From Cirrosporium novae-zelandiae (taxonomy: Eukaryota), in NCBI GenBank assembly GCA_026023565.1, contig JAPETS010000029.1:248001-312000 (forward strand): a stretch of DNA of 64,000 bases, given 5' to 3'. Positions 2,851 through 56,476 of the stretch are shown here, one piece after another. Made by a program: the position numbers and the translations under genes. Under the pieces are notes generated by a model. It saw only the letters and a list, made by a program, of their open reading frames with translations. It was not told the origin of the DNA and searched no databases. Each line of letters begins with the position of its first letter. Position 1 is the first letter of the stretch.

Positions 2851-3462
2851 GGTGGGTGGCGTGAAAAGAAGTGAAAATGGTCTGTAATTGAAACCTCTCA
2901 GAGGATATGTCGAAACTAGATAAAAGTTTCTTAGAAGAAACGAGGGCGAAGGAAACAAGTTTGAAGGAGTGACGAGCAGATGCAGATGAAGCTCTGGAGT
3001 CTCAACTTTGACGCGGCACGGTACAGAGCTCCAAGAACGCCTCGGGATGACGCAACGACCAACTCCACTGCAGCCTAGAACAACGCCAAAGAGAAGCTTC
3101 TTTGTCAATACGAGATCTACAACAACAACATCATCGACATTTGATAAATATTGCTATCATCAATACAAGCCATGGAGTTTAGCTGCTTCCTTACCACTTT
3201 AAACCTTTGGCTCCCTGCAGGATTCCAAGTAGTCTTATCTCCTAAAACCCAAGTACTCGAGCTATATTACATACCGTACAGGAATGATAGGCACATTAAT
3301 AGTACAGGTCGATGAGTATAGTATATTGCAATTGGGTATATGTCATCATAATATATGTAATTCTACTTTGAATGTATTAAAAGTGTCGAGAGAATCCCTT
3401 CAATCTAGCTTTTTTGGGTACCATATCCTGAGTTACATAAAACCGTTGAAGATTACTTCAAA

Positions 3463-14131: not shown

Positions 14132-17100
14132 CTATCCCGATTTCACCTGAAAGGCCTCCCCAATTCGCCATAACCACCCCCACCTCGAACTTGGCATTGT
14201 CCCCCGCTTATCCTTATCCTGATCCTGATCTCCATCATCCAAGCTGACATCGGTATTGGAGCTGTGCTCCGAAATAGCTAAAGGGGAAAGGAAAGAAGAG
14301 CTCGAAAGGGATGGTGATGTTGTTGAGGTCGGAGGGGATAGGCTATTGGTATTTGTGGTGTTGGTGGAGCTAGATCTATGGGAGCGCGTGTCGTCATCGT
14401 CGTTGTCGTTATTCGGGTTTCGTTTAGCAGAAGCCGAGGTAGTCATTCCCGTTCTCGTAAATGCTTTTGTGGTTGTTATTACTTTTTTCGCTTCTGCTTC
14501 TGCTCTCGTACCACCTGGTCTCAGAATGAACCCGATAGCCTGCAAAGTTTCGATGTTCTTGCAGATGGCAGCTTCGATTCGAGTTTGAGTTTGGATCTGG
14601 GTTTTTGAAACTGCCGGATGCAACTCTTGGGCTGGGGTTATATTAACGTTGTCGGGTTTCTTTGAGCCCTGCGTGCCGAGTGTGAATTCCGGGTTCTCGA
14701 GCATGGACATTACGGACCAGAGGATGTGTTTCTCTTTTTTGCATGCGACATCTTTTTGTAAGAGGATAAGCCATTCTTTGTGCGGTTTTGGTTGGAGGTT
14801 GTAGCCTATTTTGGCGGTAAGGGTGCTCCAAAAGTCCTGGACTGTGAGACCTTGATTGAGAGTTATGGTGTTGTCTTTACCAGAATGGTGGTTATTGTTG
14901 CCCTGACCGAGACAACTTTCAAGGATGGTGCTAGCGACTTGTTCAACATCCATGACCGACAGATATGAATCCGCAGACTCTTGTGGGTATGCGCCGATAT
15001 CTATCACAGCCGTGACAAGCCTCCAGAGAAAATCATCAAGATTTGGGATTCCCTCCTTCGGGGTGCCTATAATGAGACCCGGTCGGACGATAGAAATGCC
15101 GTGTGAAGCGGCAGCAGGCATTTCTGCAAATCTTCTAACTAGCATTTCTGAGACGAACTTGGTTTGGCTGTATCCATTTGCGGAGCTGAGTGTTCTTGTA
15201 AATGAAATATCGTCACCATTTTCATCATCCCGCTGCACACCGCCAGATACGTATGTGAAATTTCCAGGCATCGGCCATGAGCTGACTGCTTCGAGGAGCT
15301 CTAGAGTGGAATCGACGTTGGCCTGTTTTAGGGCCGCGAAGGGGGCCACCCAGTTGACGGCAGCGCCGTTATGGATTATGCAGTTGACTTGTTGGCCAAA
15401 AGGACAGTTGCCTTTCAATATCTCCCACTGATCTGGGGTTAACCCGAGGTTAGGTTCAGCAAGGTCACCTTTCCAGCATTCAAGCTTGGATAGATATTTC
15501 TCTGACCACCATCTTCCCAGTTCTGCTGCCTGAATGACACGACGCAGAGCAGTGCTGTTAGACTCGGCCCGAACATGAACAATGACCTTTTTGACCGTTC
15601 GTTGCTCAAGTAGCTGTCGCAAAATCTGAGATCCAAGGAATCCAGTTGCTCCTGATAGGAAAACAATCATTTGAGGTGGTTCAGGAGTCACACACCGTGA
15701 AGAAAGTTGTGAACAAAGATTTTCAGCCTCCTTGATGAGGTCAAACTTGAAATCCTGATGAGGTTTTGCCCCTTTAGCCGCGCAGATCAATTGAGATAGG
15801 CTCAATACTGTCAGATCCTTGCTATAGAGGGTGTCAACACTGATCTTGACATCGAATTCCCCTTTGATGAAGCTTAAGATGGAGATTATCTGAATGGAAT
15901 CTAGTCCAATCGTTGAAATCATCACATCGCGCCTTCCCAACGCCAAAGAATATTCAACATCTCTTGAATGAAAGAGACTTGCGATCTTATCAGCTAGTTT
16001 CAGAGCTGTATACTCGTGATCTGGAATCATTGGCCGTTTTATGATAACAGAATTTCTGAAATCGCTACTCTCAAAGCGCTTAGTCTTCATTTGTAAGGCC
16101 TGCTGGCGGAGACTCTTTCGATCAATCTTGCCTGATGCTAACACCGGGAGCTCGTTAACACAAAAAAACCTAGAAGGTATCATATAAGACGGCAAGAGCT
16201 GTGCCAATCGGGAGTGCAGCTCGGCATTGTCAAAAGTTTCTGACCCTGTCAACTGTGGCAGAGTGCTCTCAAAGCCGCAGTCTGTAGAGCAGCTATCCAT
16301 ACAAGCAACAAAAGCAACCAAAACTGCTTCTTCGGACCTTTTTGATGCCAAGGCAATTTCAACAGCGACATTTTTAGCGTTCTGAAAGATGTCCCGTAAA
16401 TGATACTCGACCTCACTTAGTTCGATTCTCTGGCCTCGGATCTTTACTTGCGTATCTTTCCGCTCTTCGAAGTTCAATGTTCCATCTGAATTGTATCTCA
16501 CGAGGTCTCCTGTTTTATAGAACCTTCTTTGCTTGGAGTCCGAATTGCGGGCCCATGTTGGATCATGGATAAAAACTTCTGCAGTCTTCTTTGGATTGTC
16601 AAGGTAGCCGCGGGCCAGATGTGGCCCTTCCAAGAGAAGCTGGCCGACTGAACCGATTGGAACCAGTCGATTGTCATCGGTCGGGTCAACAATCCAGGAT
16701 GCACCAACAACTGCTTTACCTATATTTGCAGGATCGGAAGACCTCTTTAGGCCCTTCTGAACGGTACTGACGACAGAGCACTCACTGGGTCCATAGCCGT
16801 TAATTAAACAGACTTTATCAGCCCAAACCTCAATTTGGTCCTTTGCAAGTGCCTCCCCCATCAGAATCAGTGTTCTCAAGCTTGGAACATCGTCGGGACA
16901 AATCTGTCTTGCAAACGATGACGTGAGTGCTGCGAAATTCACTTGCATAGAGCGAATCACACCAACAATATCACCGATTCTATCAGCTTCTGAAGGCATG
17001 CAAATACAGCCACCAGCCATTAGTGTTGATACAATATCCACAATACTTGCGTCAAATGAAGTCGAGGCAAACTGGAGGGCTCGGGAATTAGGTCCTAAAT

Positions 17101-20100
17101 CATATACCTTGATGTGATTTATAGCGTCTACATAGTAGGACTTATGCTCAATGACGACGCCTTTTGGTTGCCCTGTTGAACCGGAGGTGAAAACTATATA
17201 CATTGCATTCTCCGACTTCAGGGGTCTTTTGACGAGCTGATTATCACGTTCAGCCTGTGAGATAGTTATGTTTAATATGTCGTCAGTGAAGCGTCCCGAT
17301 TCAAACGTAGCTGCATTGACGGCCAGAGAATCAACGAGGGTACTTGAGAATCTAGTAAGATATTTCCGTGATAGCATAATGAGAGGAGCCTTTGTCTGTT
17401 GAATAATAGATTCCAATCGTTTAGTCGGATATGAGGGGTCGAGTAACACGAAGCAGCCCCCAGCCTTCATAACTGCTAGCAAGGCCACAATTGTCCAAAG
17501 AGACTTGTCAAAGCATAGAGGTACAATAACTTCAGGCCCAACACACCATTGTATAGTTAGTTGACTGGCCAGCTGCCCAGACAGGCGGTCAAGATCAGCA
17601 TACGACAGTTCTCCATCCCAAGAGCATATTGCAACCGCATTGGGTCTCTCATTAGTTCGTCTTTCGATTTCATGATGACTGAAGCTAGTGAAGTCCTCTT
17701 GGGCTTGAGGGTTTTCATTCCATGTCTTGCACTCTTCCAGATCTCTCGGATTAATACAGCTAACCTCCCTAAGTGTCTTGCTAGAATTTTTGGGACAAAG
17801 TTGCTGTATAACGTGTTCAAATTGATACAAAATTCGCATCGCTTGCTCTTGGTCAATGACACTGCTATCAAAAGTAGAAGTAAACTTGATATCATTTTTT
17901 GAAAGTGCGCATTGTATGGTCAAGGCGTATGTGTCGAAATTCGCCTGGCTTGCTGAACTATCACAGGATAACCAAGAAGAATTAGAATTAAGAAATGCTT
18001 GAACTTCCGGGGGTTGGATGACTAAAAGATTCTGAAAATTGCAGGCGGATTGAACCTTAGGTCCCAGTTGTTTGATTTCCCAAAGTCCGATGTGTTCGAA
18101 TTCAATCATGTCGATGAACTTTTTTTGGACACTATCCAAATAAGATGCAACCGTCTGTTCATAGTTCATCTGGATTCGCACTGGAACTGTAGATAGGGTT
18201 GGACCTGCCAAATTTTCGATCCCCTTGATAGGCCTATTTCGGCCATTCAGGACTGTTCCATAAACTACATCATTTGAGTCTAGGTAATTAGCTATTACCA
18301 AGCCCCAAGCTCCCTGGATTACTGTTGACATAGTAAAGGCAGATGATGCTTCGTTGATCACAGTTCGATGCTTTATCATTCTATCTGCATTGGGTTTGTG
18401 GTCCACCCTTCGAGGATTTGGAAAAGAGAGTGTATTGGCACCAGACAGCTGAGTGGTCCAGAAAGATTCGCAAGCGGTGTTTTGTGTACGTCTTGCGTGT
18501 TCGATAAAGCATTTGAATGAAAGCCTGCGAGGCAAATCAATCCCAAAATAGGCTCGTTCAATGTCTTCCATGATAAGGCGCAAGGACCACCCATCATATT
18601 GACTATGATGTGCAGTCCAAACAAAATATATTTGCTGGCCCTCTGTTACGAGCGCAAGACGTGATAATGGTCCACCAAACTGTATTTGAATATTCCTATC
18701 CGTAGTTAGGTAAGAATCAAGGTTCTGTTCAGTCAACCACCTTAAAGGGTGATCTTTTAGAACAACTTGAACGGCACCGTTTCCTGACTCAAGCTCAATG
18801 ATCCGTGTTCTTAACAAGGCGTTTGACCGTGCAACGGTTTCCCACGATTCACGGAATCTTTCGAGATCTATATTAGCTGGGAGTTTAAAGACATGTTGAG
18901 CAACATATGATCCTGGAGAAGTCATGGATAGTGCAAGCAAACCTCGCTGAAGGGGAGTGCAGGGATATATATCTTCAATAGAACTGACGGATACGTTGCA
19001 TTGTCTAGATGCATCCAAAGTTGTATCTGTGATAGAGTTGCTATCAAGCAAAGCAAAAGTCTCGATATTATTATCGTCCTGCATATATGCAGGTGGGCTA
19101 ATGAGGGCTATTTCACGAGCGAGATGTAATAGCCTCGGATTTTGGAAGATATTTGCAACTGTAAAGAACAAGCCCTCTCTACGCGCCAATGACGCCAGCC
19201 TCATTGCAGTTATTGAGTCACCGCTTAGCTCGAAAAAGCTATCCTCGACCCCAATTGATTCGGGAGGAAGGTTTAACACACTCGCCCAGAGCTGCTGTAG
19301 CATTTTCTCCGTTGTTGTGGATGGCGATTTCTTTCCGCCTCTAGACTCACGCTCCGAGATGGAAGCTAGGATCTCGGCGGGAATAGTGAAAGCAAGTTGT
19401 CGTAGTCTACGGCGATCGGTTTTACCACTATTCATAATCGAAATCCTGGAGATTGGTATAAATATGGAGGGAATCATATGGGCTGGTAATGAATGTGATA
19501 GGGAGGTTCTTAGCTCCTTGATAATGGTCTCGAAACATTCATTGGGTATGTGATCGGTAGTTGCTTCCATTTCACTCTCATCAATGCCGGGCCCTATGGA
19601 GTCTCGGTCCCCAGATATAAAAGCAGCAAGTTTTGAGGGTGCATATAAGTTTGAGTCCAACTGAGAATTTCCTGTGGAACTGTTGCTTTTACTCGGCTGG
19701 AGCCTGATCACGTCTGCGACAACATTTAGGTTTGTCGGTAAATTAAGTCTTAGATGGTATTCCACCTCTTCGAGCTCAATTCGCTGGCCTGACAATTTGA
19801 CTTGTGCATCCTTTCGTCCTACATAGCATATCCTCCCGTCGGAGTCGTAACGAGTTAAATCGCCTGTCCGGTATATGCGGAGGGGATCCCGAGACCCGTT
19901 TAGAGTCGGTGTAAATGGACTTTCAATAAATAAATGGGATGTTTTTTCTGGGTCTTTGATATATCCGCGAGCAAGGGTCAAGCTTTCCACAACAAGCTCA
20001 CCTATGGCACCAATTGGACAGAGTCGAGTTGTATCTGGTTCTACAATCCAACAGTTCCCCCCCACTGGGTGACCAATGGCGCCTGTAGCAATTGATTCCG

Positions 20101-23100
20101 GGGTGGTTATATCTCCAACAACACAAACAACACATGTCTCAGTTGGCCCATATCCATTCATCATTTGAACATGACCAGCCCATTGCTCAACGACGTCTTT
20201 TGTTATTGCTTCCCCTACAAACACAATTTTCTGTAGGGTTGGAACTTCTTTAGGTTTCAAGAGTCGTGCAACTGTGGGCGTGAGCAGGGAAAAGTTCACG
20301 CTAGCTGAATGGATAAATCCAGCGAGGTTATTCAGTCGTTGTGTCTCCGATGGTATGCACACACAGCCCCCATAAATCAAGGTAGTGAGGATTTCGGCAA
20401 TACAGGCGTCAAATGTAAAGTTGGAGAATTGCAACATGCGTGTTTCGGGTCCGATTCCCATTACCTCTCCATGCTTAATTGCGCTCAAGCATAATGCCTT
20501 GTGCTCAACAACAACTCCTTTGGGCACGCCAGTACTCCCAGAAGTAAACATAATATATGCAGCTTGGTAAGAATTCATGGGAGTATTAGGGGATTTAATA
20601 GCTGGCGAAACAAAAAGGCTGTTAATAAATTCTAAATCAATAACAATTCTCTTCACTCCAATGGTCGCTAAAGCAGCGGGGCATTGTGATGATGTCAGGA
20701 CAATATTTGCTTCAACTTGAGTTATTATAAATTCAAGACGACTTTTTGGATGCGATGGATCAAGAGGTACGAAGGCTCCCCCAGATTTCATAATTGCTAT
20801 CATTGCAACAACAGCCCATCCAGATTTCTCAAAGCATATAGGAACAAATGTTTCTGAGCCTATGCCCAAACTTGTAAGATAATCCGCTAAAACGGTTGAG
20901 AGTTTATCGAGTTCACTAAAGGTCAAATCGCCATCAGTTGAAGTTATGGCTTTAGCATTAGGGCGACTCAAAGCTGGGCGAAGAATTAATTCATGAGCAA
21001 GAGCTTCTATCGTCTCTGGTGGATTCATCGAGTTCCATGTGGCGAGGGTTTGTTTATCTTCGGGGCTAATTGTTTCAATATCTTCGATGCTCCTTGTAGG
21101 TTCCTCAAGGCATAGTTGATGTATGATATGTTCAAACTGGCCAAGCATTCTTTCCAGCTGTTCTGGTTCAACTATAGCTGTATCGAACATAGCAACAGCC
21201 TTTGCCCCAAAGTGTGTCAGCTCGCAAGCTAGGGTTAAGGGATATGTTGTATAATCCAACATATCCGTGGGATTTAGATCTAGCCCAATCTGGCTATCCT
21301 TTTCCTCCGAGGCCTTCTTTGGGTGTATGACAAGCAAATTTCGAAAGGACAATGCCTCCGTCTCGGAGTTAATTTTCGTGATATTCTGAAGACCAAAATG
21401 CTCAAAAGGAGTCATTTCCGTATATTGTGCTTGGAGTTCATGGAGGAATCTATTAACCTTTTTTGAGGGATCCACGTGAAATAGTATTGGTACAGTAGCT
21501 ATTGTTGGTCCTGATATCTCGGTAATCCCAATCACTGGTATGTCCCGGCCGCTCATAGTTTCGCCGAATACAGTCATTTCGGAATTAGTATAGCGGGCCA
21601 GCAGTAAACCCCAAGCAGTTCGGACCACCGTAGGGACTGTTATTGGCGAGCTCTGCTTCGAGAAATATAGATCCCGTCTCCGGTAGGCGTTAGCGACTGA
21701 TCGGTATCCAGTCAGTGGAGGTGTGGGAAACGTTGAAGGGATACCACGACCTGCTTGGTTCTTCCAGTATTCACGGCATGCCTGCACATCCATTTGACTC
21801 AAGTGATTAACAAACCGATTGAAGTTGGGAGCTCTGTTCAGCCTTGAACTATGATACATTTGTTCAACTGATTTCAAAAGAAGTGCGATTGACCACCCAT
21901 CGAAAATAGAATGATGAGCTGTCCACACAAAGAAATTTTGAGTCCCAGTCTTAACAATTGCATAGCGAGTCAAGAGCTTGATCAATTCCATTGGGATTTG
22001 TTTATCCTGCTGGAGGAATGAGTCCAGGTCTTTGGATTGCCTCCATCTAATTTGGTCTCTGGCAACAACTTGGAATAAACGCGTTGTCTGTACCTGTACC
22101 AGCCTCGTTCGGAGGATGGGATTATATTCGTAGATAGAATCCCACGCAACGCGAAATCTCTGTAAATCAATACCAACAGGTATTTCAAATACATGCTGAG
22201 TAACATATGCCCCTGATTGTTTCGCCGATAACACTAGGAGCGCCTCTTGCAAGGGGGTTGAAGGGTAAATGTCTTCAATTTCAGTCACATTAAGACCACA
22301 TTGGAAAGCAACATTACTCCGAATCTCCTCTACGTTTCCATCTAAAAGGGCTAATGGAGCAATCTCAGCTATTTCGCAAAGGGGACAAGCTACCAGGGCT
22401 CGCGCCAGGACTTCAATCTGAGGATTTTGAAATATCTCTGCAACGGTGAGTGACAGTCCTTGTGCTCGCAGAGCTGCAACAATTTTCATTGCAGTAACGG
22501 AGTCGCCGCCACAAGCAAAGAAATCTTGATCGATACCGATATTATGACCATCCAGACCTAGAAACTGTGACCAAAGGCGATGTAATATTAATTCATTATC
22601 CGTTGAGGGCTGTTTTGTATTCTCGAGGGGGCCCATTAAGGAGAGAAGCTGTTTAGTTGATAACTGAGAAGCATTTCTCACAATCTGTTTTCTGTCTGTC
22701 TTACCAGAATACGTTTGGGGCATCGCGTTTAAAGCCACAAACATCGTCGGGACCATATAAGCAGGAAGGGAACGGCGCAGGAATACTTTAAGTTGCGGTA
22801 GTTCTGTTTGCAAGAGGTACCTCATTTCGGATGTAGTTCCATTAACATCCCGCTCAGTCCCTGGAACATCTTCAACGCATATAAATGCGACCAGAATGTT
22901 GTTAGCTTCTTCTTCACATGGTGTTACAATATCGACCATCACGTCACGAGCTTTCGGTAGACCTCGTCGCAGATGATACTCGATTTCGCCGAGTTCGATG
23001 CGCTGACCTCGAAGTTTGATTTGCGTATCTATCCGCCCGACATAGCGAATAGTTCCATCCGCAGACCCTTGGACCAAGTCCCCAGTTCTATAGAAGCGAG

Positions 23101-24409
23101 TTGACCCCATTTTGTCATTAAACCAGGATGGGCTTTGAATAAAAGCTGTTTCTGTCTTGGCCTTATCGTTGAGATATCCTGTTGCTAAAGTAGGTCCGCC
23201 TATCAACAGCTCCCCAGTAGCACCAACTGGAAGAAGCTCGTCAGGATTTTCGGGGTTCGTAATCCAGCATGTTCCACCAACCGCAGTACCAATCACTTTC
23301 GGATCACGGGAGGTTTCTCCAAATGAAAACATTACGCAGAAAACGCAACATTCTGTTGGCCCATATCCATTTATCAATTTTCTCCCCATCCATGTATTAA
23401 CGATGTCTTTAGATATGGCTTCTCCACCAACAACAAGTGTTTCGAGATGGGGGACTTCCTCCGGTCTAAGGAGCCTGACCATAGTAGGCGTGAAAAATGC
23501 CCAGGTGATACTTGCAGAGTTGATATAGCCCGCAAGATTATTCATGCGGTCAAAATCAGAAGGAATGCAGATACAACCTCCATAGATGAGGGCAGTAATA
23601 ATCTCAGCAATACTTGCATCAAAAACATAATTGGCAAACTGCAAAACCCGGCTTTTACGACTGAATCCCATCGCCCGACCATGCGCTATAGTACTGGAGC
23701 AGACCGCTGAATGCTGAAGAATCACCCCTTTAGGCGTTCCCGTGCTTCCAGAAGTGAAAATAACATAAACAGCATTATCTGGTTGTACGACAATAGAATT
23801 CAAAGTAACGAGATCCAGATCATATGGTTGCGGGATAGCTCCCATCGATGAGCTATCAACCACCACGACATCTAGATCCAGATGTTCGAGTAATTGTGAG
23901 GTTTTGCATGATGAGAGAATGATGTTGGTTTTCAGTTCAGAAATGATGTGTGCTATTCTGCTAGGGGGGTGGGAAGGATCAAGTGGAACGAATGCTCCGC
24001 CAGCCTTCATAACGGCCATTATTGCCACAATCATCCATTTTGACTTTTCGAAGCAAAGTGGAACATATGTCTCTGGTCCTACATCTTTAACGGTTGCAAG
24101 ATAAAAAGTCAACCTAGATGAAAGATCATCGAGTTCCTTGTATGAGAGTTCTCCGTCCCAAGAACTTACAGCAGGCGATGCTGGGTCGTTTTGGAGCTGT
24201 TTGGAAATCAGATGATGTACGCAGTCATATATCGACTTTGGTTTGGTAGAGTTCCATCCCCATAGCTGCATTTCAGGTCCCGGACAAAAACCACATGCCT
24301 CACTCGGGTCGAGTTTTGAAGTACTATCAGGAGTTATGGATTGTGGAGGATTCGTCTCAGTGTGGAGCTCAAGGAGGGATAAAGGTTGAGGGGAAGCGTG
24401 GAGCGCCAT
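14132..24409 (-). CDS. Trimodular non-ribosomal peptide synthetase, A-T-C-A-T-C-A-T-R, 3425 aa, intronless
   Basis: Three A domains (FTSGSTGxPKG, NGYGP[TS]E, [RK]TGDL). T domains GGDS (about 22500), SGDS (about 19220) and GLDS (about 15900). C domains HHSIFDG (about 21900) and HHSQYDG (about 18600). Terminal reductase with GATGFLG (about 15640) and YSQTK (about 15165). Confidence 0.97.
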   Translation of the reverse strand: MALHASPQPLSLLELHTETNPPQSITPDSTSKLDPSEACGFCPGPEMQLWGWNSTKPKSIYDCVHHLISKQLQNDPASPAVSSWDGELSYKELDDLSSRLTFYLATVKDVGPETYVPLCFEKSKWMIVAIMAVMKAGGAFVPLDPSHPPSRIAHIISELKTNIILSSCKTSQLLEHLDLDVVVVDSSSMGAIPQPYDLDLVTLNSIVVQPDNAVYVIFTSGSTGTPKGVILQHSAVCSSTIAHGRAMGFSRKSRVLQFANYVFDASIAEIITALIYGGCICIPSDFDRMNNLAGYINSASITWAFFTPTMVRLLRPEEVPHLETLVVGGEAISKDIVNTWMGRKLINGYGPTECCVFCVMFSFGETSRDPKVIGTAVGGTCWITNPENPDELLPVGATGELLIGGPTLATGYLNDKAKTETAFIQSPSWFNDKMGSTRFYRTGDLVQGSADGTIRYVGRIDTQIKLRGQRIELGEIEYHLRRGLPKARDVMVDIVTPCEEEANNILVAFICVEDVPGTERDVNGTTSEMRYLLQTELPQLKVFLRRSLPAYMVPTMFVALNAMPQTYSGKTDRKQIVRNASQLSTKQLLSLMGPLENTKQPSTDNELILHRLWSQFLGLDGHNIGIDQDFFACGGDSVTAMKIVAALRAQGLSLTVAEIFQNPQIEVLARALVACPLCEIAEIAPLALLDGNVEEIRSNVAFQCGLNVTEIEDIYPSTPLQEALLVLSAKQSGAYVTQHVFEIPVGIDLQRFRVAWDSIYEYNPILRTRLVQVQTTRLFQVVARDQIRWRQSKDLDSFLQQDKQIPMELIKLLTRYAIVKTGTQNFFVWTAHHSIFDGWSIALLLKSVEQMYHSSRLNRAPNFNRFVNHLSQMDVQACREYWKNQAGRGIPSTFPTPPLTGYRSVANAYRRRDLYFSKQSSPITVPTVVRTAWGLLLARYTNSEMTVFGETMSGRDIPVIGITEISGPTIATVPILFHVDPSKKVNRFLHELQAQYTEMTPFEHFGLQNITKINSETEALSFRNLLVIHPKKASEEKDSQIGLDLNPTDMLDYTTYPLTLACELTHFGAKAVAMFDTAIVEPEQLERMLGQFEHIIHQLCLEEPTRSIEDIETISPEDKQTLATWNSMNPPETIEALAHELILRPALSRPNAKAITSTDGDLTFSELDKLSTVLADYLTSLGIGSETFVPICFEKSGWAVVAMIAIMKSGGAFVPLDPSHPKSRLEFIITQVEANIVLTSSQCPAALATIGVKRIVIDLEFINSLFVSPAIKSPNTPMNSYQAAYIMFTSGSTGVPKGVVVEHKALCLSAIKHGEVMGIGPETRMLQFSNFTFDACIAEILTTLIYGGCVCIPSETQRLNNLAGFIHSASVNFSLLTPTVARLLKPKEVPTLQKIVFVGEAITKDVVEQWAGHVQMMNGYGPTETCVVCVVGDITTPESIATGAIGHPVGGNCWIVEPDTTRLCPIGAIGELVVESLTLARGYIKDPEKTSHLFIESPFTPTLNGSRDPLRIYRTGDLTRYDSDGRICYVGRKDAQVKLSGQRIELEEVEYHLRLNLPTNLNVVADVIRLQPSKSNSSTGNSQLDSNLYAPSKLAAFISGDRDSIGPGIDESEMEATTDHIPNECFETIIKELRTSLSHSLPAHMIPSIFIPISRISIMNSGKTDRRRLRQLAFTIPAEILASISERESRGGKKSPSTTTEKMLQQLWASVLNLPPESIGVEDSFFELSGDSITAMRLASLARREGLFFTVANIFQNPRLLHLAREIALISPPAYMQDDNNIETFALLDSNSITDTTLDASRQCNVSVSSIEDIYPCTPLQRGLLALSMTSPGSYVAQHVFKLPANIDLERFRESWETVARSNALLRTRIIELESGNGAVQVVLKDHPLRWLTEQNLDSYLTTDRNIQIQFGGPLSRLALVTEGQQIYFVWTAHHSQYDGWSLRLIMEDIERAYFGIDLPRRLSFKCFIEHARRTQNTACESFWTTQLSGANTLSFPNPRRVDHKPNADRMIKHRTVINEASSAFTMSTVIQGAWGLVIANYLDSNDVVYGTVLNGRNRPIKGIENLAGPTLSTVPVRIQMNYEQTVASYLDSVQKKFIDMIEFEHIGLWEIKQLGPKVQSACNFQNLLVIQPPEVQAFLNSNSSWLSCDSSASQANFDTYALTIQCALSKNDIKFTSTFDSSVIDQEQAMRILYQFEHVIQQLCPKNSSKTLREVSCINPRDLEECKTWNENPQAQEDFTSFSHHEIERRTNERPNAVAICSWDGELSYADLDRLSGQLASQLTIQWCVGPEVIVPLCFDKSLWTIVALLAVMKAGGCFVLLDPSYPTKRLESIIQQTKAPLIMLSRKYLTRFSSTLVDSLAVNAATFESGRFTDDILNITISQAERDNQLVKRPLKSENAMYIVFTSGSTGQPKGVVIEHKSYYVDAINHIKVYDLGPNSRALQFASTSFDASIVDIVSTLMAGGCICMPSEADRIGDIVGVIRSMQVNFAALTSSFARQICPDDVPSLRTLILMGEALAKDQIEVWADKVCLINGYGPSECSVVSTVQKGLKRSSDPANIGKAVVGASWIVDPTDDNRLVPIGSVGQLLLEGPHLARGYLDNPKKTAEVFIHDPTWARNSDSKQRRFYKTGDLVRYNSDGTLNFEERKDTQVKIRGQRIELSEVEYHLRDIFQNAKNVAVEIALASKRSEEAVLVAFVACMDSCSTDCGFESTLPQLTGSETFDNAELHSRLAQLLPSYMIPSRFFCVNELPVLASGKIDRKSLRQQALQMKTKRFESSDFRNSVIIKRPMIPDHEYTALKLADKIASLFHSRDVEYSLALGRRDVMISTIGLDSIQIISILSFIKGEFDVKISVDTLYSKDLTVLSLSQLICAAKGAKPHQDFKFDLIKEAENLCSQLSSRCVTPEPPQMIVFLSGATGFLGSQILRQLLEQRTVKKVIVHVRAESNSTALRRVIQAAELGRWWSEKYLSKLECWKGDLAEPNLGLTPDQWEILKGNCPFGQQVNCIIHNGAAVNWVAPFAALKQANVDSTLELLEAVSSWPMPGNFTYVSGGVQRDDENGDDISFTRTLSSANGYSQTKFVSEMLVRRFAEMPAAASHGISIVRPGLIIGTPKEGIPNLDDFLWRLVTAVIDIGAYPQESADSYLSVMDVEQVASTILESCLGQGNNNHHSGKDNTITLNQGLTVQDFWSTLTAKIGYNLQPKPHKEWLILLQKDVACKKEKHILWSVMSMLENPEFTLGTQGSKKPDNVNITPAQELHPAVSKTQIQTQTRIEAAICKNIETLQAIGFILRPGGTRAEAEAKKVITTTKAFTRTGMTTSASAKRNPNNDNDDDDTRSHRSSSTNTTNTNSLSPPTSTTSPSLSSSSFLSPLAISEHSSNTDVSLDDGDQDQDKDKRGTMPSSRWGWLWRIGEAFQVKSG

Positions 24410-25860
24410 TTTTTAGGTTAATGCAATGAAGGAAAGTGTCGAATTGAAAGGAGGAGGCTCCTAGCTCAAAATGCAACTGCTAACATTGATAATAGATTTA
24501 TGGGAGAAGGGCAACAATATTATGATAATCGAAAGCACCAAGTTGACTTGCCTGCACCTACCATTACCATTTATTAAAACGTGAAGTAGCCCTTTAAAAT
24601 ATATTTGTGGCCATAAGTAAGGTATCCTCACCCGAATCGTTCTATACAAATAATACCAGGATACCCCTGAGCACAAATCTACGTTAACAATGAAACTCTA
24701 ACGGCTGAAACCTAATATAAACTTTATAGTAGGGCTAAGCATTAATCAAAAATGCAGGGTTCTCATCGTAAATGTTGTGTAAAAAGCTGGGGTATCTGAT
24801 TCATCGAGTTCACTGAGCTAGAGGAGCATTATTCATGACAGCTGCGCATATGTTGGATGGCGGTGAGAGACTTTCTCTCTATCAAATGCTCGAAGGACGT
24901 GCCTAGGTCGATGACTACCGAGTTATTGCTAACTGCTAAATTAGAAACATTTCTCCTGTCTCCTGATCTAAATTCCTAACCTGATGGCATATAAGTGCCA
25001 TGAATCCTATGAAAATCGAAATGAGCATGCCTAGAGGTCATTAAGTCCAAAATCCTAGCTCCAATTTTCAGATACCATCAGCCAGAGACGTACTATATGA
25101 TCCCCAAGTGGTTAGAGAACATGACTGATATCGGAGCTCCAACCTCCCCACAAAAGATGACTTCACCGAACAGCTTATATCAGCTCATCCTTCAATAGGA
25201 TTTTTAAACAAGATGTTCAGCTACACTCGACTTTCGTAAATCTTAGAACTAATATCTTCAATTTAGTAAGATTTTATAGGTTCTTAATGTAACGTTGACT
25301 TGCAACTATAAGGTCGTAAAAGATGAAGGGCTTACTAAGTTAACAGATTTTTCTTCTCCGCCAAAATAACTGCCATATGTGGTGTAACATTCGCATCCAC
25401 ATCGTGGCGGTAGATCACGGGCACGCCGTTTGGAACTAAGTTGTACCTTCAGGGGACTCAATTATTAGTTGGATTTAAGCTTGCCATCATGGTCAGCTGC
25501 ACGGACACTATCGCTTAATCCAATGCAGCCTCAAGGGATAAATCTCAAAGCAAAGTGAAATTATGTAGAGTTAGCCGGCCGCCCAAGTGCTTATGGTAAC
25601 GCAAGAGGATTCTAGGTACCTGTAGAATAATCCTTAAAACAGGGACTAGGGTACGCCATTTTATCGATTGGTTCTTCGGATCTGTGAGTTGCGGAAATTA
25701 TAGCCCTGTCTTGTTCTAGGAATAGATAAACAGTGCCAGGCCATATTTTTTAAGCTGGATATTCCCACATTCAAGTAATATTTTTAGGACCTTTGATGGT
25801 GATCTTTTATATTTCTTCTTCTCCTCTTATTTAGCGAGTATATTCAAAACCAATTCCCCA
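24410..25860. promoter_or_regulatory. Shared divergent intergenic/promoter region of the NRPS and MFS transporter
   Basis: Head-to-head ATGs at 24409 (-) and 25861 (+) with no credible gene between. No specific binding site identified. Confidence 0.55.
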
Positions 25861-27975
25861 ATGGATACACAAACAAAACCAGCAAATGCCAAGGAGGATA
25901 CTCCGATGAAAGGTAATATGGATAACAATGAAGAGACTGTGACCGAAGAAGAAGAGGTTATATATCCTGGGCATTTCAAATTCGGGCTCATTTTTGTAGC
26001 TCTCTGTCTCTCAATATTTGAGGTGACTTTGGTGGGTGGCATTGAAGACATTGATGACAGGGAACCCGAGCTAACAATGACAGGACGAAACCATCATTGC
26101 TACAGTGAGAGATTGTCAATTTTGATGAAAATGGTAGATTTTGGAAATTGACCAGAAACATAGGCTGTTCCCACAATCACAAATGAATTTAACTCCCTCA
26201 AGGACGTTGGCTGGTGTGTATAACTTAAGGAGAAGCTTTATAGATGGAGGAGATTACTGAGACAACGTCAAATCTAGGTACGGGTCGGCTTATTTACTAA
26301 CCGTAAGTTGATTTGACCCCTGTAAACTATGCAGACCTTGGCATCTTCAGGTACCCCAAGCCCCAAGCTCTAGCCTCAGGTCCCCCAAATTTAAGGCTCC
26401 GATATTAATCAAAAGCTTAGCTCTGCTCCTTCCAACTTCTGTTCGGCAAGATTTATACAATTTATTCCACCAAACTCACTTTTCTTGTTGCCCTTGGAAT
26501 CCTACAAGTAGGCTCGATTATTTGTGCTGCTGCTCCTAACTCAATTGCTCTAATCTTGTAAGAAAATAAATCCTCCCACTTCTCAGGACCAGCGATATTA
26601 ACTATTCATTAGTGGCAGGTTGATTGCTGGATTAGGAGCCAGTGGTATTTGGTCTGGAGCAATTACTATTCTCTCACGTTCTGTTCCACGAACTAAAATT
26701 GCTCCCTTCAATGGCCTCCTCGGTGCTGTAGCTGGTGTTTCCTGGATCAGTGCTCCGCTGGTTAGTGGTGGTATCATAAACAACCCTAATTTATCTTGGA
26801 GATGGATCTTCTGGATAAACCCAATCGTTGCATGCCCAACCTTGTTGGTTATTGGAGCCTTTGTTAGCCTCCCTCCCCCACCAGCAGCACCCTGGAAACA
26901 AAAGTTAGCCAAAGTTGATCTGCTTGGGTTCTCAGTCTTTCTTCCATCAATTATCTGTCTCTTGCTCGTCCTGCAGTGGGGAGGCTCAGAATATGGTTGG
27001 ACCAATGCACGTATCATCGTGCTGTTCATACTGTTCGGACTCTTGCTAGCGGGCTTTGTCGCGATTCAGATCTGGAAACAAGATGGAGGAGTTCTCCCTC
27101 CACGCATCGTGACCCAAAGAAGCATTGCATTCGGAATATTCTTTTCCCTCTGCTGCTCTGGTGCCTCATTCATTCTTGACTACTATGTTAGTACAAATGT
27201 CATCTTCCATCCTATTATTCATCGAGCTAATCTGTGCATTTCCTCGTAGTTGCCCATCTGGTTCCAAGCAGTGAAAAGGTCAACAGCCTTGGAGTCTAGT
27301 GTTGACATGCTACCCCACATCTTGAGCTCCATTATTATGACCACTGCCTCAGGTGCCGTCGTTCCCATAATCGGATACTACGTCCCAATGATGATAGCAG
27401 CAACCATCCTTCTCTCCATTGGAATTGGCCTAATCACAACCTTCACCCCCTACACCAACTCTCCCAAATGGATCGGCTACCAAGTCCTCACAGGCAGTGG
27501 CCTCGGTCTAGCTCTCCAGCAAACTGTTCTCGCTGCCCAAACAATCCTAAAGCTTGATGACATTCCGATCGGTATCGCCGTTATGACACTCGCTCAAGCG
27601 TTAGGCGGCACTATTTTCCTCTCTGTTTCCGAAGCCGTCTTTACATCCAAGCTTTCTTCGGGGCTGTCTGCCGCCATTCCTGGCCTAGATAAATCCTCCA
27701 TCCTGAATGCAGGCGCCACGGATCTGAGGACCCTCATCCCTGCCAAGTATCTCAAGACTGTGCTGAGGGTCTATAACGATGCCGTTATACAAACTTGGTA
27801 TGTCGCGCTAGCTTTGGCATGTCTTTCAATTCTCGGTGTCATCGGTATGGAGTGGGTGTCCGTCAAACCAGAACAGCCAACCAAGGAGTCCTCACGCAGT
27901 GAATCTAGATCTAGCGAATGCATCTCGGAGGAGAACGAACATACAGAAAAGGCGAAAACTGACATTGAACAATAG
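25861..27975 (+). CDS. MFS drug:H+ antiporter (DHA2, 14-TMS toxin-efflux type), 7 exons
   Basis: Spliced frame [49 protein letters not shown]...GRLIAGLG...SWRWIFWIN...LQWGGSEYGW...LPIWFQAVK. The frame appears intact. Confidence 0.93.
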
Positions 27976-30430: not shown

Positions 30431-32598
30431 TTATTGGGCGCTAGGCCCTTCTGCCTGCTTCTTTTCGTCGTCATTGGTAGGTTCCTCTTTCTTGTCCTTT
30501 CCACCCTCTGCTACTTGAATGCCTTCCATCTTATCGCCATCATCTATAGCACTGGTGCTAGTTTCAGCGGGTGGCTGTGCTGAGGCGGCAGGTGTAGGGA
30601 GAGATTCGGTGGCAGGTGCAGAAGCAGTAATCGTTGTATTCGATACTGGAGGAGAAGCAGGTGGAGTATTTTCTTGTGGGCCGTTAGCAACAGCCGCAGG
30701 TGGCGCAGTGGTTATGGCTGCAGGGGCTTCAGCATCGCCCATCTGAACATCTTCATCCTCAGGTGGTGCATGAGACTCTGTATGAGATGCTGCAGATGAA
30801 TCGGGATTCTCGCTTGCAGCAGGAGTGGCAGAGTCGTCTTTCAGCGCTGATTCATGATTGATGCCATTTGTGTGGGCCACACCATTTAACCCATCATCAG
30901 CTTCCGAGGCGCTTTGATGGTGGGGGCTTGCAGCACCACTATTGATACCGTCGTCGGCAGCATGGGAGTTCTTGAAATCGGTGATATTCCGACGCCTCTT
31001 TTGACCTGGTTGACGGTGGACTCCGTGTCGCTCGCTCTCCTCTTCATCTTCACTTTCACTGAGCTCCCCTTCCTTCTCCACGTACTGATCCCAGCGACGT
31101 TTAGTATATCTCGAGTCCTTGTGTTCATCCGAGTCAAGGTCATCGAGAATCGCGTCGGCTTCGTCATCCATGCCAATTGGGTCTCGGGGAACATCAGTCA
31201 TCTGGACGGAGGGGGCATGAGCGGTCCGCTTGAGATTTTCTATGACTTGGATCTTGATCTTCTCAAGGTATTCCCGAGAATTGGCATTTTCCATATTGGA
31301 AGCCCTGACGTTAAGCTCGTAATCGGGAGCGAAGTACTGCCTTGAAGTTAGTCACTGCAAGTTTCAGAGATCCTTGATCAACCTACCTCGTAATAGTCAT
31401 TGTAGGGCAGTTTTGGGTCCATGGTTTCACCGACCACGACACCCGTCTCGAAAGCCCAAGTACGAGCGACATTTCGCATGGTATACCCGCCACCGCCAAC
31501 GACCAGAGTTGGGAGACCAAAGCTCTTGACGAAGTTGACACAATTGGCATGGCCTCTCATTGTCAGGTTGAAAGCACCAAGTCGATCGCCAGATAAGCTA
31601 TCCCCACCACATTGGCACACAACAGCCTCTGGGCGGTAGTATTCCATGATGGCACTGATGACAGGTTCGAAGATGGTACGATATGACCAATCGGTAATTC
31701 CATCCCTGAGTGGGAAATTGACAGCGTAGTGCTTTCCAGAACCAACACCAATGTCTCGAAGCTCACCGGTTCCAGGGAAGTATTCACCATACTTATGAAA
31801 CGAGCAAGTCATCACTCGGTCTGTGGTGTAGAACGCTTCCTCGACACCATCGCCATGGTGAACATCAATATCTACATAGAGGACTCGTTGTTTGAACCTC
31901 AGTAGCTCTAGGATCCCAAGAACAATGTCTAACTAGGATTAGCGCCTGAAATTAATAATCGGGAGGTTAACCATACCATTGACGTAGCAGAAGCCACTGG
32001 CTTCGCTCTTCTTCGCGTGGTGGAGGCCACCAGCCCAGTTGACAGCGATATCGCATTTGCCCCGATTGAGCCTTGCGGCGCCTTCCATGCTCCCTCCAGC
32101 GCTGATACCGCAAAATTCGAATAGGCCGTCAAAAACGGGACAATCGCAGTCTTCTCCCACGTGAAATTTCCCTTGCTCCTTCCAGAACCCTTCCATATTG
32201 TCTGGAGTGATTTTGGATAAGAAGTCGATATACTCATCAGTATGAAACTGGGTCATTTCATGCTTTGAGGCTGGTTTCGCGCGCTAAAAAGTTGTTAGCT
32301 TTGAGTTACAGCATCTCTGGGTTAAAGCACAGCTTATGAGAAACGCTTCCCTCGCTGAAGCGAGGAGTGGACATGTGAACTTTTAGAATCGGATTAGACT
32401 TACATATATTTCCATTTTTTTGTATAGGCCGTAATTCATCACCAAGGAGTGGGCCATGCGCATTCGGTGAGGTTTCATGGGATGACCAGCATTATAAGCA
32501 TAGTTCCCGACATCTGAATCGTAAAAGTATGCGACTCGTTTCTTCTCTTGGTTATTGATAGTGAGGTCTTGCGCTGTAAAAGCGCCAGTACCACCCAT
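30431..32598 (-). CDS. RPD3: Class I histone deacetylase Rpd3/RpdA, 4 exons
   Basis: Exons 32598-32404, 32283-31977, 31928-31387 and 31336-30431. Motifs [58 protein letters not shown] and an acidic C-terminal tail. Confidence 0.97.
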
Positions 32599-33204
32599 GA
32601 TGGACTTATCAAACGTTTAGGGGCTATATGATAAATAGTTCGGTAGAGAGGACGTTATAGTATAACCAATGATGAGAAGAAAACTGAGGTAGTAACTGGT
32701 TAAAATCTTTGGGGGTGATGGTTAAGGTGAGGTAAAGTGAGGTGAGATGAAGAATATCAAAGGGAATGAATAAATGAGTGACGGAGGAAATGCACATAAA
32801 GGCCGCTTGGGAACCTGTTAAGCGACAAGTATAACACTGCTGAGAAACTGGGGGCTGGTTCTTATATTTTATAGGGTGTATTAACCGCTCACGTGGTATG
32901 GTCAGATATATAGCCGACATAGTTGTCCAGGAGAAGAAATAAAGTCACGTGGATAGCTTTTTTATGGTACCACTTTGCTTAGTCATAATAAACTAGTGAA
33001 TTTGCTACCTTATCACCCCGATTGCCTAAACTGAGCTTTGAACAGCTAAAGTGAATACCATCTTCACTGCAGCAAAATAAGGTCTCAACTTCACTTTCTT
33101 GCAACTCTCTTCTTCCAGTTTCTAGAAAGTATATTGAATTGAATAACTAAAGGCGCATTTCTAAAAACGGTGCCCGCCATTCAAAACTGCTTATAGACCG
33201 CCAA

Positions 33205-34457
33205 ATGGATCGCTTGAACCGAATACTTCAAGCTGCGTCGGGGATGGGTGGGATGAATGCTTCAAGTCCAGGTGGTGTAAGTCTTCTTTATATCTATCTA
33301 CAGGGCTATTTCCCGGTTGCCCACGTTGCTGGGACACAGAATTGCGGATTCGATTAATTTGGATTTATTACTTGCCGCTCCAATACTTTGACTAACACGT
33401 AATATGTAGGATACTCCAAACCTTATCGACAACTCCGAGACTGTATATATCTCCTCCTTGGCCCTTCTTAAAATGCTACGACACGGAAGAGCAGGTGTGC
33501 CCATGGAGGTCATGGGGCTGATGCTTGGGGGGTTTGTGGATGATTTTACAGTTCGCGTTGTAGATGTCTTTGCCATGCCACAAAGTGGTACTGGGGTCAG
33601 TGTTGAAGCTGTTGACCCAGTATTTCAAACCAAGATGATGGATATGTTAAGGCAAACTGGACGGTCAGTGGCATAATATTTCGCGAGATCATGATACTAA
33701 CTATTCTCAAGACAAGAGACTGTAGTTGGCTGGTACCATTCACATCCTGGTTTCGGATGTTGGCTCTCTTCCGTCGATATAAATACCCAACAGTCCTTCG
33801 AGCAGCTTACTCCTCGTGCCGTAGCTGTTGTTGTTGATCCTATCCAGTCAGTCAAAGGCAAAGTTGTCATAGATGCATTCCGGTTGATTCAACCCCAAAC
33901 ACTCATGATGGGCCAAGAACCACGACAAACAACATCTAACTTGGGACACCTTAATAAACCTTCGATACAAGCTCTTATCCATGGTCTGAACAGACATTAC
34001 TACAGCATTGGAATAAACTACCGAAAGACTGGCCTTGAGGAGAACATGCTTATGAACTTACATAAACATGTCTGGACTGACGCCCTTGAGATGAATGATT
34101 TCAAAGAGGAAGCACACCGGAATGAAGATAAACTGAAACGACTGGTTGATCTTGCCGAGGGCTATGAGAAGAGGGTCAAGGAGGAGACTGAGCTGACTAA
34201 GGAGCAACTTAAGACAAGATATGTTGGAAAGGTAGACCCAAAGAAGCGTACGTTTGCTAATTCTAACATTAACCACTATAATCCTCGTGCTAACTTTCAC
34301 TACAGATATCGAAGATGTCGGCCAACAACTTATCGAAGATAATATTGTAGCCGTGTCCCGCCAGATGATAGACAAGGAAGCATCAGTCGCAAAGACAAAT
34401 GGAGAAGCAAACAGTCGGCAAAATGGTGGGGACATGGAAATAGATGACGAACTTTAA
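33205..34457 (+). CDS. RPN11: 26S proteasome lid JAMM deubiquitinase Rpn11, 4 exons
   Basis: [35 protein letters not shown] motif [32 protein letters not shown]. Confidence 0.97.
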
Positions 34458-56395: not shown

Positions 56396-56476
56396 TCTTC
56401 CTATTCCTCAAACAAACTCATCCTATTTATGAATCTTCCTACTTTTTCTAAAGCTTAGAACATCAACAGCAAAACC

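What the first reader, a model, noticed from the sequence alone, without database searches (positions are those of the whole stretch)
32140..32151. Two-residue insertion in the inhibitor-binding L2 loop of the RPD3 deacetylase next to an NRPS
Seen: the gene encodes [20 protein letters not shown], whereas class I HDACs normally read (F/Y)NVG(E/D)DCPVFDG. The two DC copies use different codons (GAC TGC, GAT TGT), which argues against an assembly slip or very recent duplication. Established: this loop carries the rim aspartate (human HDAC1 D99) that binds substrate backbone and peptide inhibitors. Apicomplexan class I HDACs have a two-residue insertion at the same place (GE-AT-DCPVF), and substitutions there alter Toxoplasma HDAC3 sensitivity to the fungal cyclic peptide FR235222. 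Inference: this Rpd3 may have altered inhibitor sensitivity, possibly self-protection against the product of the NRPS about 6 kb away or of another cluster.
Basis: partly seen in the sequence, partly recalled or inferred. Interest (0 to 1): 0.8.

Follow-up and report, generated by a model that had tools for sequence, protein, structure and literature searches.

The report
Rim-loop insertion in a fungal deacetylase
A little-studied fungus has two extra amino acids in the loop at the mouth of its main histone deacetylase, where substrates and cyclic-peptide inhibitors dock, but nothing found here ties this to the neighbouring peptide-synthetase gene.

Summary
Window 32140..32151 (minus strand) reads GAC TGC GAT TGT in the middle of exon 2 of a four-exon RpdA/Rpd3 class I deacetylase gene. 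It gives [15 protein letters not shown]. The protein is 100% identical to an NCBI model named for a Cirrosporium novae-zelandiae MAG.

An independent assembly of a run that holds this DNA reproduces the stretch with no difference at word depth 356. All 275 homologs fetched read N[VIL]G[DE]DCP[VI]FDG, and none has extra residues or His for Asn. Catalytic residues, fold and C-terminal tail are intact, and no second RpdA-type copy appeared.

The loop-L2 site matches where Toxoplasma HDAC3 carries its A98-T99 extension. At least 18 of 150 unnamed class I representatives also carry two extra residues there, so the site tolerates length changes outside fungal RpdA.

The link to the NRPS is not supported. 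That enzyme is A-T-C-A-T-C-A-T-R paired with an MFS transporter, unlike the four-module, C-terminated synthetases of cyclic tetrapeptide inhibitors. No close relative is available for a co-occurrence test.

Best reading: a real, old, lineage-specific codon duplication in the only RpdA found. It probably changes rim geometry. Whether it is adaptive is unproven.

The parts
32140..32151 (-). Two tandem Asp-Cys codon pairs: GAC TGC (D110 C111, 32151..32146) and GAT TGT (D112 C113, 32145..32140). One pair is extra relative to every homolog.
   Evidence: sequence. (two-residue gap against yeast Rpd3). (0 of 275 homologs have extra residues).
32125..32169 (-). Loop-L2 motif [15 protein letters not shown]. 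It includes His106 (32163..32161, Asn in all others) and Glu109 (32154..32152, Asp in the fungal orthologs, Glu in human HDAC2).
   Evidence: 179 of 179 aligned orthologs have N and D at these columns. (the HDAC2 alignment shows rfnvge--dcpvfdg).
30431..32598 (-). RpdA/Rpd3-type class I histone deacetylase gene, 649 codons. Exons are 32598..32404, 32283..31977, 31928..31387 and 31336..30434, with the stop running to 30431. Introns are 120, 48 and 50 nt, all GT..AG.
   Evidence: exon map reproduces P0003. (100% identity to P0003). (E 5.6e-214 to yeast Rpd3). (TM 0.98 and rmsd 1.1 to 7yi0_B).
14132..24409 (-). Single-exon NRPS of about 3,425 residues with domain order A-T-C-A-T-C-A-T-R (terminal NAD_binding_4 reductase). 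It is a neighbour and is not shown to belong to the finding.
   Evidence: 3 AMP-binding stretches, 2 Condensation stretches, PP-binding, NAD_binding_4 at 2919-3163. (translation; motif order read directly).
25861..27975 (+). MFS transporter gene transcribed divergently from the NRPS, with introns and approximate ends. It lies between the NRPS and the deacetylase.
   Evidence: MFS_1, E 2.9e-12, on 26602..27246. (open reading frames).

Best explanation
The window carries the housekeeping RpdA/Rpd3 class I histone deacetylase of a Cirrosporium lineage, the only copy detected. Its L2 rim loop is two residues longer than in every other fungal RpdA examined. The simplest origin is a 6-base tandem duplication of the Asp-Cys codons. 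Two synonymous third-position changes followed, so the event is old and the added residues have been kept. An Asn-to-His change lies four residues upstream, and an Asp-to-Glu change lies next to the duplication. The catalytic machinery is intact, so the enzyme should be active. The extra residues sit where Toxoplasma HDAC3 has its A98-T99 extension, on the rim that contacts substrate backbone and the cap of macrocyclic inhibitors. The expected effect is therefore a changed rim geometry, with some shift in substrate or cap-group binding. Shown: the insertion is real, unique among fungal orthologs, at this position, and in an intact enzyme. Inferred: the duplication origin, retention under constraint and an effect on binding. 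No functional tie to the neighbouring NRPS is indicated.
For: Sequence and codons.
Independent assembly at word depth 355.7 with 0 differences.
Identity to the annotated model P0003.
Uniqueness: 275 of 275 homologs are canonical. In the search restricted to residues 88-132, the protein itself scores 97 bits and the next best 71 bits among 989 candidates.
Two-residue gap against yeast Rpd3 and human HDAC2.
Intact enzyme: H153, H154, D189, H191, D277 and Y316 are invariant across 60 aligned sequences. The AF2 model has pLDDT about 90 over residues 101-120. Foldseek gives TM 0.98 and rmsd 1.1-1.2 to yeast Rpd3 and HDAC2.
The site tolerates length change elsewhere: at least 18 of the 150 listed representatives carry two extra residues at the same spot, and two carry three.
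Among 180 aligned orthologs, the only columns invariant in all the others where this protein departs are the four in L2.
Relevance of the site to cyclic-peptide inhibitors: PMC2715132, passages read.
Against: No biochemical data exist, so an effect on binding is inference.
The three L2 events cluster only weakly. A simulation gave P about 0.1 for 3 of 12 events falling within 5 conserved columns.
This protein has the most substitutions at conserved core positions of 180 orthologs: 11, against a median of 0 and a 90th percentile of 3. The L2 changes could therefore be part of a generally faster or relaxed rate and not a specific remodelling.
Run X1 may be the window's own source, so there is no second specimen.
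No RNA run was available.
The whole genome is not held, so a second copy cannot be excluded directly.
Confidence: 0.7

Rival explanations
1. Target-site self-protection against the product of the adjacent NRPS. On this view the NRPS and MFS pair makes an HDAC inhibitor, and the neighbouring RpdA has been remodelled at its rim to escape it.
For: Physical adjacency: 6.0 kb, with only the MFS transporter gene between them. By my rough estimate, an essential gene lying this close to a backbone gene is expected in only about 1-2% of cases (inference, not computed from this genome). The changed loop is the one that governs cyclic-peptide sensitivity in Toxoplasma. Fungi that make HDAC inhibitors do show inhibitor-resistant deacetylase activity of unresolved basis (PMC2442719, passages).
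Against: The NRPS has three A domains, two C domains and a terminal reductase. Such an enzyme releases a linear tripeptide reductively. The known fungal peptide HDAC inhibitors are cyclic tetrapeptides closed by a terminal C domain. No fatty-acid-synthase-like, aminotransferase or P450 genes for an Aeo-type side chain lie between 11 and 30 kb. Both sides of the NRPS-MFS pair are housekeeping genes: Sedlin, YEATS, RpdA and RPN11. Known cluster resistance genes are extra copies, and only one RpdA is seen here. The window was picked from very many, so a coincidence of this kind is expected now and then.
Confidence: 0.06
2. Adaptive target-site resistance to a cap-binding HDAC inhibitor made elsewhere, either by another cluster in the same genome or by competing fungi in the habitat.
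For: The only departures at columns invariant in all 179 other orthologs are in L2. His for Asn accompanies a two-residue D-S extension in three unnamed representatives, P0403, P0404 and P0413, which hints at a coupled solution. Substitutions at this position change cyclic-peptide sensitivity in Toxoplasma.
Against: No inhibitor or cluster is known for this organism, and the genome could not be searched. In Toxoplasma, drug sensitivity depends on the extension and resistance comes from substituting T99 within it, so the direction of any effect here is unknown. The fast overall rate of this protein offers a neutral alternative.
Confidence: 0.15
3. The new His-x-x-Glu-Asp-Cys-Asp-Cys cluster forms an extra metal-binding or redox-sensing (Cys-x-Cys) site at the mouth of the active site that regulates activity.
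For: Six potential ligand side chains fall within eight residues, two of them new Cys/Asp and one a new His. A second private change, L272C, creates another Cys-x-Cys (VVCQCGG), and C286A removes a conserved Cys. This points to rearranged cysteine chemistry. That the Cys of the D-C-P motif is redox-active in human HDAC8 is recalled, not checked here.
Against: Purely compositional. No structure or covariation supports it. The AF2 model gives no metal information.
Confidence: 0.05
4. Sequencing, assembly or binning artefact.
For: The source is a metagenome-assembled genome according to the name of P0003. The only run that holds the stretch may be its own source.
Against: The insertion is in frame and mid-exon, and the two copies differ at two bases. 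It is reproduced by a second assembler in a 38.9 kb contig at word depth 355.7 with no variant. The flanking residues also differ from all homologs, which a slip would not produce.
Confidence: 0.03

Closest known systems
RpdA of Aspergillus / Rpd3 of yeast (class I histone deacetylase, catalytic subunit of Sin3-type complexes)
   Same: Hist_deacetyl domain, catalytic residues and fold. It has the long C-terminal tail with an acidic stretch typical of filamentous-fungal RpdA (consensus; PMC5090035, passages). It is 64-71% identical over the full length to the 44 named fungal orthologs in alignment A2.
   Different: L2 is two residues longer and has His for Asn, both absent from 275 of 275 homologs. 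It has the highest number of substitutions at conserved core columns among 180 orthologs.
Apicomplexan HDAC3 (TgHDAC3) with the A98-T99 extension
   Same: A two-residue extension in loop L2 beside the rim Asp. In Toxoplasma this position controls sensitivity to the cyclic tetrapeptide FR235222 (PMC2715132, passages). An unnamed representative, P0416, with G-E-A-T-D-C-P-V-F aligns column for column with the window's G-E-D-C-D-C-P-V-F.
   Different: The residues are Asp-Cys and not Ala-Thr. The origin is independent, because every other fungal RpdA lacks it. The paper calls the extension exclusive to Apicomplexa, which the representative search does not bear out. I did not see the paper's alignment figures.
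Inhibitor-resistant deacetylase activity of HDAC-inhibitor-producing fungi (Cochliobolus carbonum, Alternaria brassicicola, Diheterospora chlamydosporia)
   Same: It concerns how a fungus might protect its own class I deacetylases from a peptide inhibitor (PMC2442719, passages).
   Different: In those fungi no target-site change has been shown. According to that review, the favoured mechanism is an extrinsic, TOXE-dependent protective factor. Here there is a target-site change but no known inhibitor.
Cluster-embedded resistance genes (inpE in the fellutamide cluster, lvrA in the lovastatin cluster)
   Same: A gene for a potential drug target lies beside a backbone synthetase and a transporter (PMC10734572, passages).
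   Different: Those are additional, divergent copies of the target gene. Here it is the only copy found, and it sits among housekeeping genes.

Membership tests
Class I histone deacetylase, Rpd3/RpdA type | Hist_deacetyl (PF00850) domain with high similarity to Rpd3/HDAC1/2 | tested here: met
   (exon 3: E 2.4e-52). (yeast Rpd3 E 5.6e-214, HDAC2 1.2e-190, HDAC1 8.2e-189).
Class I histone deacetylase, Rpd3/RpdA type | Zinc ligands and catalytic His-His/Tyr present | tested here: met
   H153, H154, D189, H191, D277 and Y316 are invariant columns in A2. Their equivalence to HDAC1 residues 140, 141, 176, 178, 264 and 303 follows from the alignment offset. The roles of those residues are recalled.
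Class I histone deacetylase, Rpd3/RpdA type | Arginase/deacetylase fold | tested here: met
   AF2 model. Foldseek TM 0.98 and rmsd 1.1 to 7yi0_B, TM 0.98 to HDAC2 4lxz.
Class I histone deacetylase, Rpd3/RpdA type | Canonical L2 motif N-V-G-[DE]-D-C-P-V-F-D-G (conserved, not family-defining) | tested here: not met
   The window has [13 protein letters not shown]. 275 of 275 homologs are canonical. This departure is the finding itself. It does not remove the protein from the family, because other class I representatives also vary here.
Filamentous-fungal RpdA | Acidic C-terminal motif required for nuclear localisation and activity | tested here: inconclusive
   An acidic stretch (residues about 405-420) matches the A2 consensus. 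The motif's sequence is in a figure of PMC5090035 that I could not see.
Filamentous-fungal RpdA | Single essential copy | tested here: inconclusive
   Only P0003 bears the organism's name in the two best-120 lists. The whole genome is not held. Essentiality is known only for Aspergillus.
Apicomplexan-type L2 extension | Two extra residues between the G-[DE] and the D-C-P of loop L2 | tested here: met
   Alignment A1. Gaps against Rpd3 and HDAC2. Text of PMC2715132.
Apicomplexan-type L2 extension | Ala-Thr residues and shared descent | tested here: not met
   The residues are Asp-Cys. The extension is absent from all 275 homologs nearest to the window's protein, so it arose separately.
Cluster-embedded self-resistance gene | Extra, divergent copy of the target next to the backbone gene | tested here: not met
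   No second RpdA-type protein of this organism appears. Adjacency itself is met (6.0 kb).
Cluster-embedded self-resistance gene | Co-occurrence of the variant with the backbone gene across genomes | not testable with these tools
   The nearest full-length ortholog scores 966 bits against 1514 for self. No fungal genomes could be searched.
HC-toxin/apicidin-type cyclic tetrapeptide synthetase (for the neighbouring NRPS) | Four modules and a terminal condensation-type cyclising domain | tested here: not met
   Three AMP-binding stretches, two Condensation stretches (both between modules) and a terminal NAD_binding_4 reductase. The terminal C domain of the HC-toxin enzyme is described in PMC8102738 (passage).

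The most novel reading that the evidence does not exclude
The only RpdA of this fungus has been rebuilt at its rim (Asp-Cys duplication plus Asn-to-His) as a natural target-site defence against a cap-binding deacetylase inhibitor, made either by the fungus itself or by its neighbours. This would be the first intrinsic, sequence-encoded inhibitor resistance in a fungal class I deacetylase. It would parallel the apicomplexan loop that sets cyclic-peptide sensitivity.
Probability: 0.15. Interest if true: 0.75.

Novelty: new variant of a known kind. Interest (0 to 1): 0.4.

Why it matters
RpdA is essential in Aspergillus and is discussed as an antifungal target (PMC5090035, abstract and passages; PMC6905131, listing only). 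The L2 rim is where cap groups of selective inhibitors make contact. A natural enzyme that keeps its activity with a longer rim loop shows what this otherwise frozen motif can tolerate. It also offers a ready-made pair (with and without the two residues) for asking how rim length sets inhibitor selectivity. In addition, the representative search shows that the "Apicomplexa-only" two-residue extension is one of several independent length variants at this site. If the change proved protective, it would address the old open question of how inhibitor-producing fungi spare their own deacetylases.

Tried and rejected
1. Whole-genome search for a second copy or for inhibitor-type clusters: no genome is held.
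The Atlas gave only weak taxon leads for nearest clusters: Ascomycota and Basidiomycota commonest for P0361 and P0413 (one search did not complete).
4. Expression: no RNA holder was listed.
5. P0361, a 128-residue fragment that reads G-P-D-C-D-C-P-I-F, first looked like a second D-C-D-C case. It aligns without a gap to S. pombe Clr6 and follows an apparent intron read-through, so I treat it as a gene-model artefact.
6. Clustering statistic for the L2 changes: P about 0.1, too weak to carry weight.
7. Indels seen in other orthologs at query positions 65, 167 and 348 coincide with the exon junctions of this gene. I set them aside as probable gene-model errors.
8. The literature search for a deacetylase used as a cluster resistance gene returned 6 papers. 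I opened only PMC8102738, and the passages read there did not describe one.
9. A brute-force exon search timed out and was replaced by a direct mapping.

Full report
**What is at the coordinates**

Read on the minus strand, window 32175..32125 is CAA GGG AAA TTT CAC GTG GGA GAA GAC TGC GAT TGT CCC GTT TTT GAC GGC, which translates to [17 protein letters not shown]. The finding's twelve bases, 32140..32151, are exactly the two Asp-Cys codon pairs. They differ at both third positions (GAC/GAT and TGC/TGT).

The stretch lies in the middle of exon 2 of a four-exon gene:
- Exons are 32598..32404, 32283..31977, 31928..31387 and 31336..30434.
- Introns are 120, 48 and 50 nt, all GT..AG.

The conceptual product equals P0003, a 649-residue protein that NCBI names "MAG: histone deacetylase [Cirrosporium novae-zelandiae]", on a 422,444-base contig. 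A six-base segment in mid-exon cannot be an intron or a splice-site slip.

**Is it real**

One public run (coded X1) holds the stretch. Its Logan contig of 38,924 bases, word depth 355.7, covers 31300..32700 with no other letter and no gap. The run may be the sample from which the window was assembled. It therefore rules out an assembler slip but is not a second specimen. No RNA run was listed.

**What the gene is**

- Exon 3 matches Pfam Hist_deacetyl at E 2.4e-52.
- The whole protein matches yeast Rpd3 at E 5.6e-214, HDAC2 at 1.2e-190 and HDAC1 at 8.2e-189.
- In a 60-sequence alignment, H153, H154, D189, H191, D277 and Y316 are invariant. By the offset these are HDAC1 residues 140, 141, 176, 178, 264 and 303, which I recall as the catalytic and zinc-binding residues.
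- An AlphaFold2 model has pLDDT about 90 across residues 101-120 and a disordered tail.
- The model superposes on yeast Rpd3 (7yi0_B, TM 0.98, rmsd 1.1) and on HDAC2.

The enzyme looks functional.

**How unusual is the loop**

I fetched homologs in three ways:
- Exon 2 against longer proteins: best 120 of 5,701 hits.
- The full protein: best 120 of 7,963 hits among 8,000 scored candidates.
- Residues 88-132 alone: best 120 of 989 hits.

Together these gave 275 distinct proteins other than P0003. Most are RpdA orthologs from across Pezizomycotina. All 275 contain N[VIL]G[DE]DCP[VI]FDG, none has two extra residues and none has His at the Asn position. In the loop-only search, P0003 scores 97 bits and the runner-up 71.

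Yeast Rpd3 and human HDAC2 align with a two-residue gap. Because the inserted unit repeats its neighbour, the alignment cannot say which Asp-Cys is "extra". The adjacent Asp-to-Glu change is mild, since HDAC2 has Glu there. The Asn-to-His change is not.

**Rate context**

I aligned 180 of the 219 proteins then in hand. I kept those of 540-760 residues that start with Met and contain one PVFDG, and dropped 39. Results for the core, residues 19-390:
- This protein has 11 substitutions at columns where at least 95% of the others agree. That is the highest of the 180. The median is 0 and the 90th percentile is 3.
- The named MAG-derived and related orthologs checked (among them Thelocarpon, Candelaria, Chaenotheca, Sclerophora, Sarea and Trichoglossum) have 0-3.
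- Most of the 11 changes are conservative (I46M, V90I, K251R, V261I, S290T, L332V, D357N). L272C and C286A are less so.
- The only columns invariant in all 179 others at which it departs are the four in L2.

As a cluster, three events in five columns is only weakly unusual (simulated P about 0.1). The L2 change is therefore the most radical feature of a protein that is in any case the fastest-evolving of the set. That leaves both a neutral and an adaptive reading open.

**The same site elsewhere**

Bougdour et al. (PMC2715132, passages read) report the following for Toxoplasma HDAC3:
- It has a two-residue A98-T99 extension in loop L2.
- T99A or T99I suffices for resistance to the cyclic tetrapeptide FR235222.
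- The site is near HDAC8 D101.

I did not see their alignment figures.

A search of 1.84 billion cluster representatives with exon 2 gave 2,981 hits at E up to 0.001, with the best 150 listed. It shows that the site varies in length more widely than that paper states:
- At least 18 of the 150 carry two extra residues: G-E-[F/Y/T/A/M/S]-T-D-C-P, G-P-x-[T/S]-D-C-P, G-S-K-T-D-C-P, G-L-Y-T-D-C-P and, in three representatives, H-V-G-P-D-S-D-C-P.
- Two carry three extra residues (Y-C-P before D-C-P).
- P0416 reads G-E-A-T-D-C-P-V-F and aligns column for column with the window's G-E-D-C-D-C-P-V-F.

Three caveats apply. The library has no names, and the tool that could supply them was off. The ranking favours proteins that share the query's loop length. 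One apparent second D-C-D-C case, P0361, is probably an intron read-through.

The three H-V-G-P-D-S representatives are of interest because they also pair His with a two-residue, Asp-led extension.

**The NRPS**

The 3,426-codon frame at 14132..24412 (minus strand) is a single exon starting at about 24409. Pfam finds three AMP-binding stretches, two Condensation stretches, PP-binding and a terminal NAD_binding_4. The core motifs read in the order A-T-C-A-T-C-A-T-R in the translation. An MFS transporter gene (about 25861..27975, plus strand) is transcribed divergently from it.

Such an enzyme should release a linear tripeptide reductively. The known fungal peptide deacetylase inhibitors are cyclic tetrapeptides whose synthetase ends in a C domain that cyclises a tetrapeptidyl chain (PMC8102738, passage). 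I found no side-chain genes nearby. The pair is flanked by housekeeping genes: YEATS and Sedlin on one side, RpdA and RPN11 on the other.

Cluster resistance genes such as inpE are extra copies of the target (PMC10734572, passages). Here only one RpdA-type protein with this organism's name appears in either best-120 list. A canonical second copy would be expected to score within those lists, but the genome itself could not be searched.

The nearest full-length ortholog scores 966 bits against 1,514 for self and is 67% identical.

**Background on self-protection**

A review of fungal chromatin (PMC2442719, passages) records that producers of deacetylase inhibitors have inhibitor-resistant activity. 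It names Cochliobolus carbonum, Alternaria brassicicola and Diheterospora chlamydosporia. The basis is unresolved, and an extrinsic TOXE-dependent factor is favoured. A target-site change would therefore be new. Here, however, there is a target-site change without any known inhibitor.

**Verdict**

It is best described as a new length variant of a known, drug-relevant loop in an otherwise ordinary and apparently sole RpdA. It probably arose by duplication of two codons. An effect on rim geometry is likely. A role in inhibitor resistance is possible but unsupported. The proposed tie to the adjacent NRPS is weak.

Noticed in passing
window 14132..24409 (-) and about 25861..27975 (+): A minimal two-gene cluster: a trimodular NRPS with a terminal reductase (A-T-C-A-T-C-A-T-R) and a divergently transcribed MFS transporter, set among housekeeping genes. 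The predicted product is a reductively released tripeptide. Its identity is unknown.
   Followed up: partly
window 31387..31928 (-), residues L272C and C286A of P0003: Two further private changes rearrange cysteines in the catalytic core. VVLQCGG becomes VVCQCGG, which is a new Cys-x-Cys. The conserved Cys of LGCFNL becomes Ala; 7 of 179 orthologs share that Ala.
   Followed up: partly
P0403, P0404, P0413 (unnamed representatives): Three cluster representatives read Y-H-V-G-P-D-S-D-C-P-V-F-D-G. They have His for Asn together with a two-residue Asp-led extension, the same combination as in the window. The organisms are unknown; the Atlas's nearest clusters are mostly Basidiomycota and Ascomycota, which is a weak lead.
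   Followed up: partly
P0306, P0307 (unnamed representatives, 613 and 622 aa): Full-length class I deacetylases with three extra residues at the same place (G-[ED]-Y-C-P-D-C-P-V-F-E-G). This looks like a duplication of the D-C-P unit followed by an Asp-to-Tyr change.
   Followed up: no
window about 33205..34342 (+): An RPN11 (26S proteasome lid JAMM deubiquitinase) gene with introns lies head to head with the deacetylase gene, about 600 bases from its start codon.
   Followed up: no
P0079, P0080 (Aspergillus fumigatus, 836 aa); P0002 (Achlya hypogyna, 834 aa); P0004 (named as contaminant in a sturgeon assembly): Odd gene models among the homologs. Two are RpdA fused to a Ribosomal_L14 domain. 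One is an oomycete protein with two deacetylase domains, the first with a degenerate L2 motif. One is a two-domain protein flagged by its source as contamination.
   Followed up: no
window 56459..59470 (+): A Het-C heterokaryon-incompatibility family gene (Pfam E 3.6e-253). Two amino-acid permease genes are also present in the window, at 6483..7367 (-) and 51216..52944 (+).
   Followed up: no
orthologs P0005, P0038, P0115 (query position 65); P0078, P0084, P0181 (167); P0032, P0206 (348): Insertions in deposited ortholog models fall exactly at the three exon junctions of this gene. They are probably unspliced intron sequence in those annotations.
   Followed up: partly
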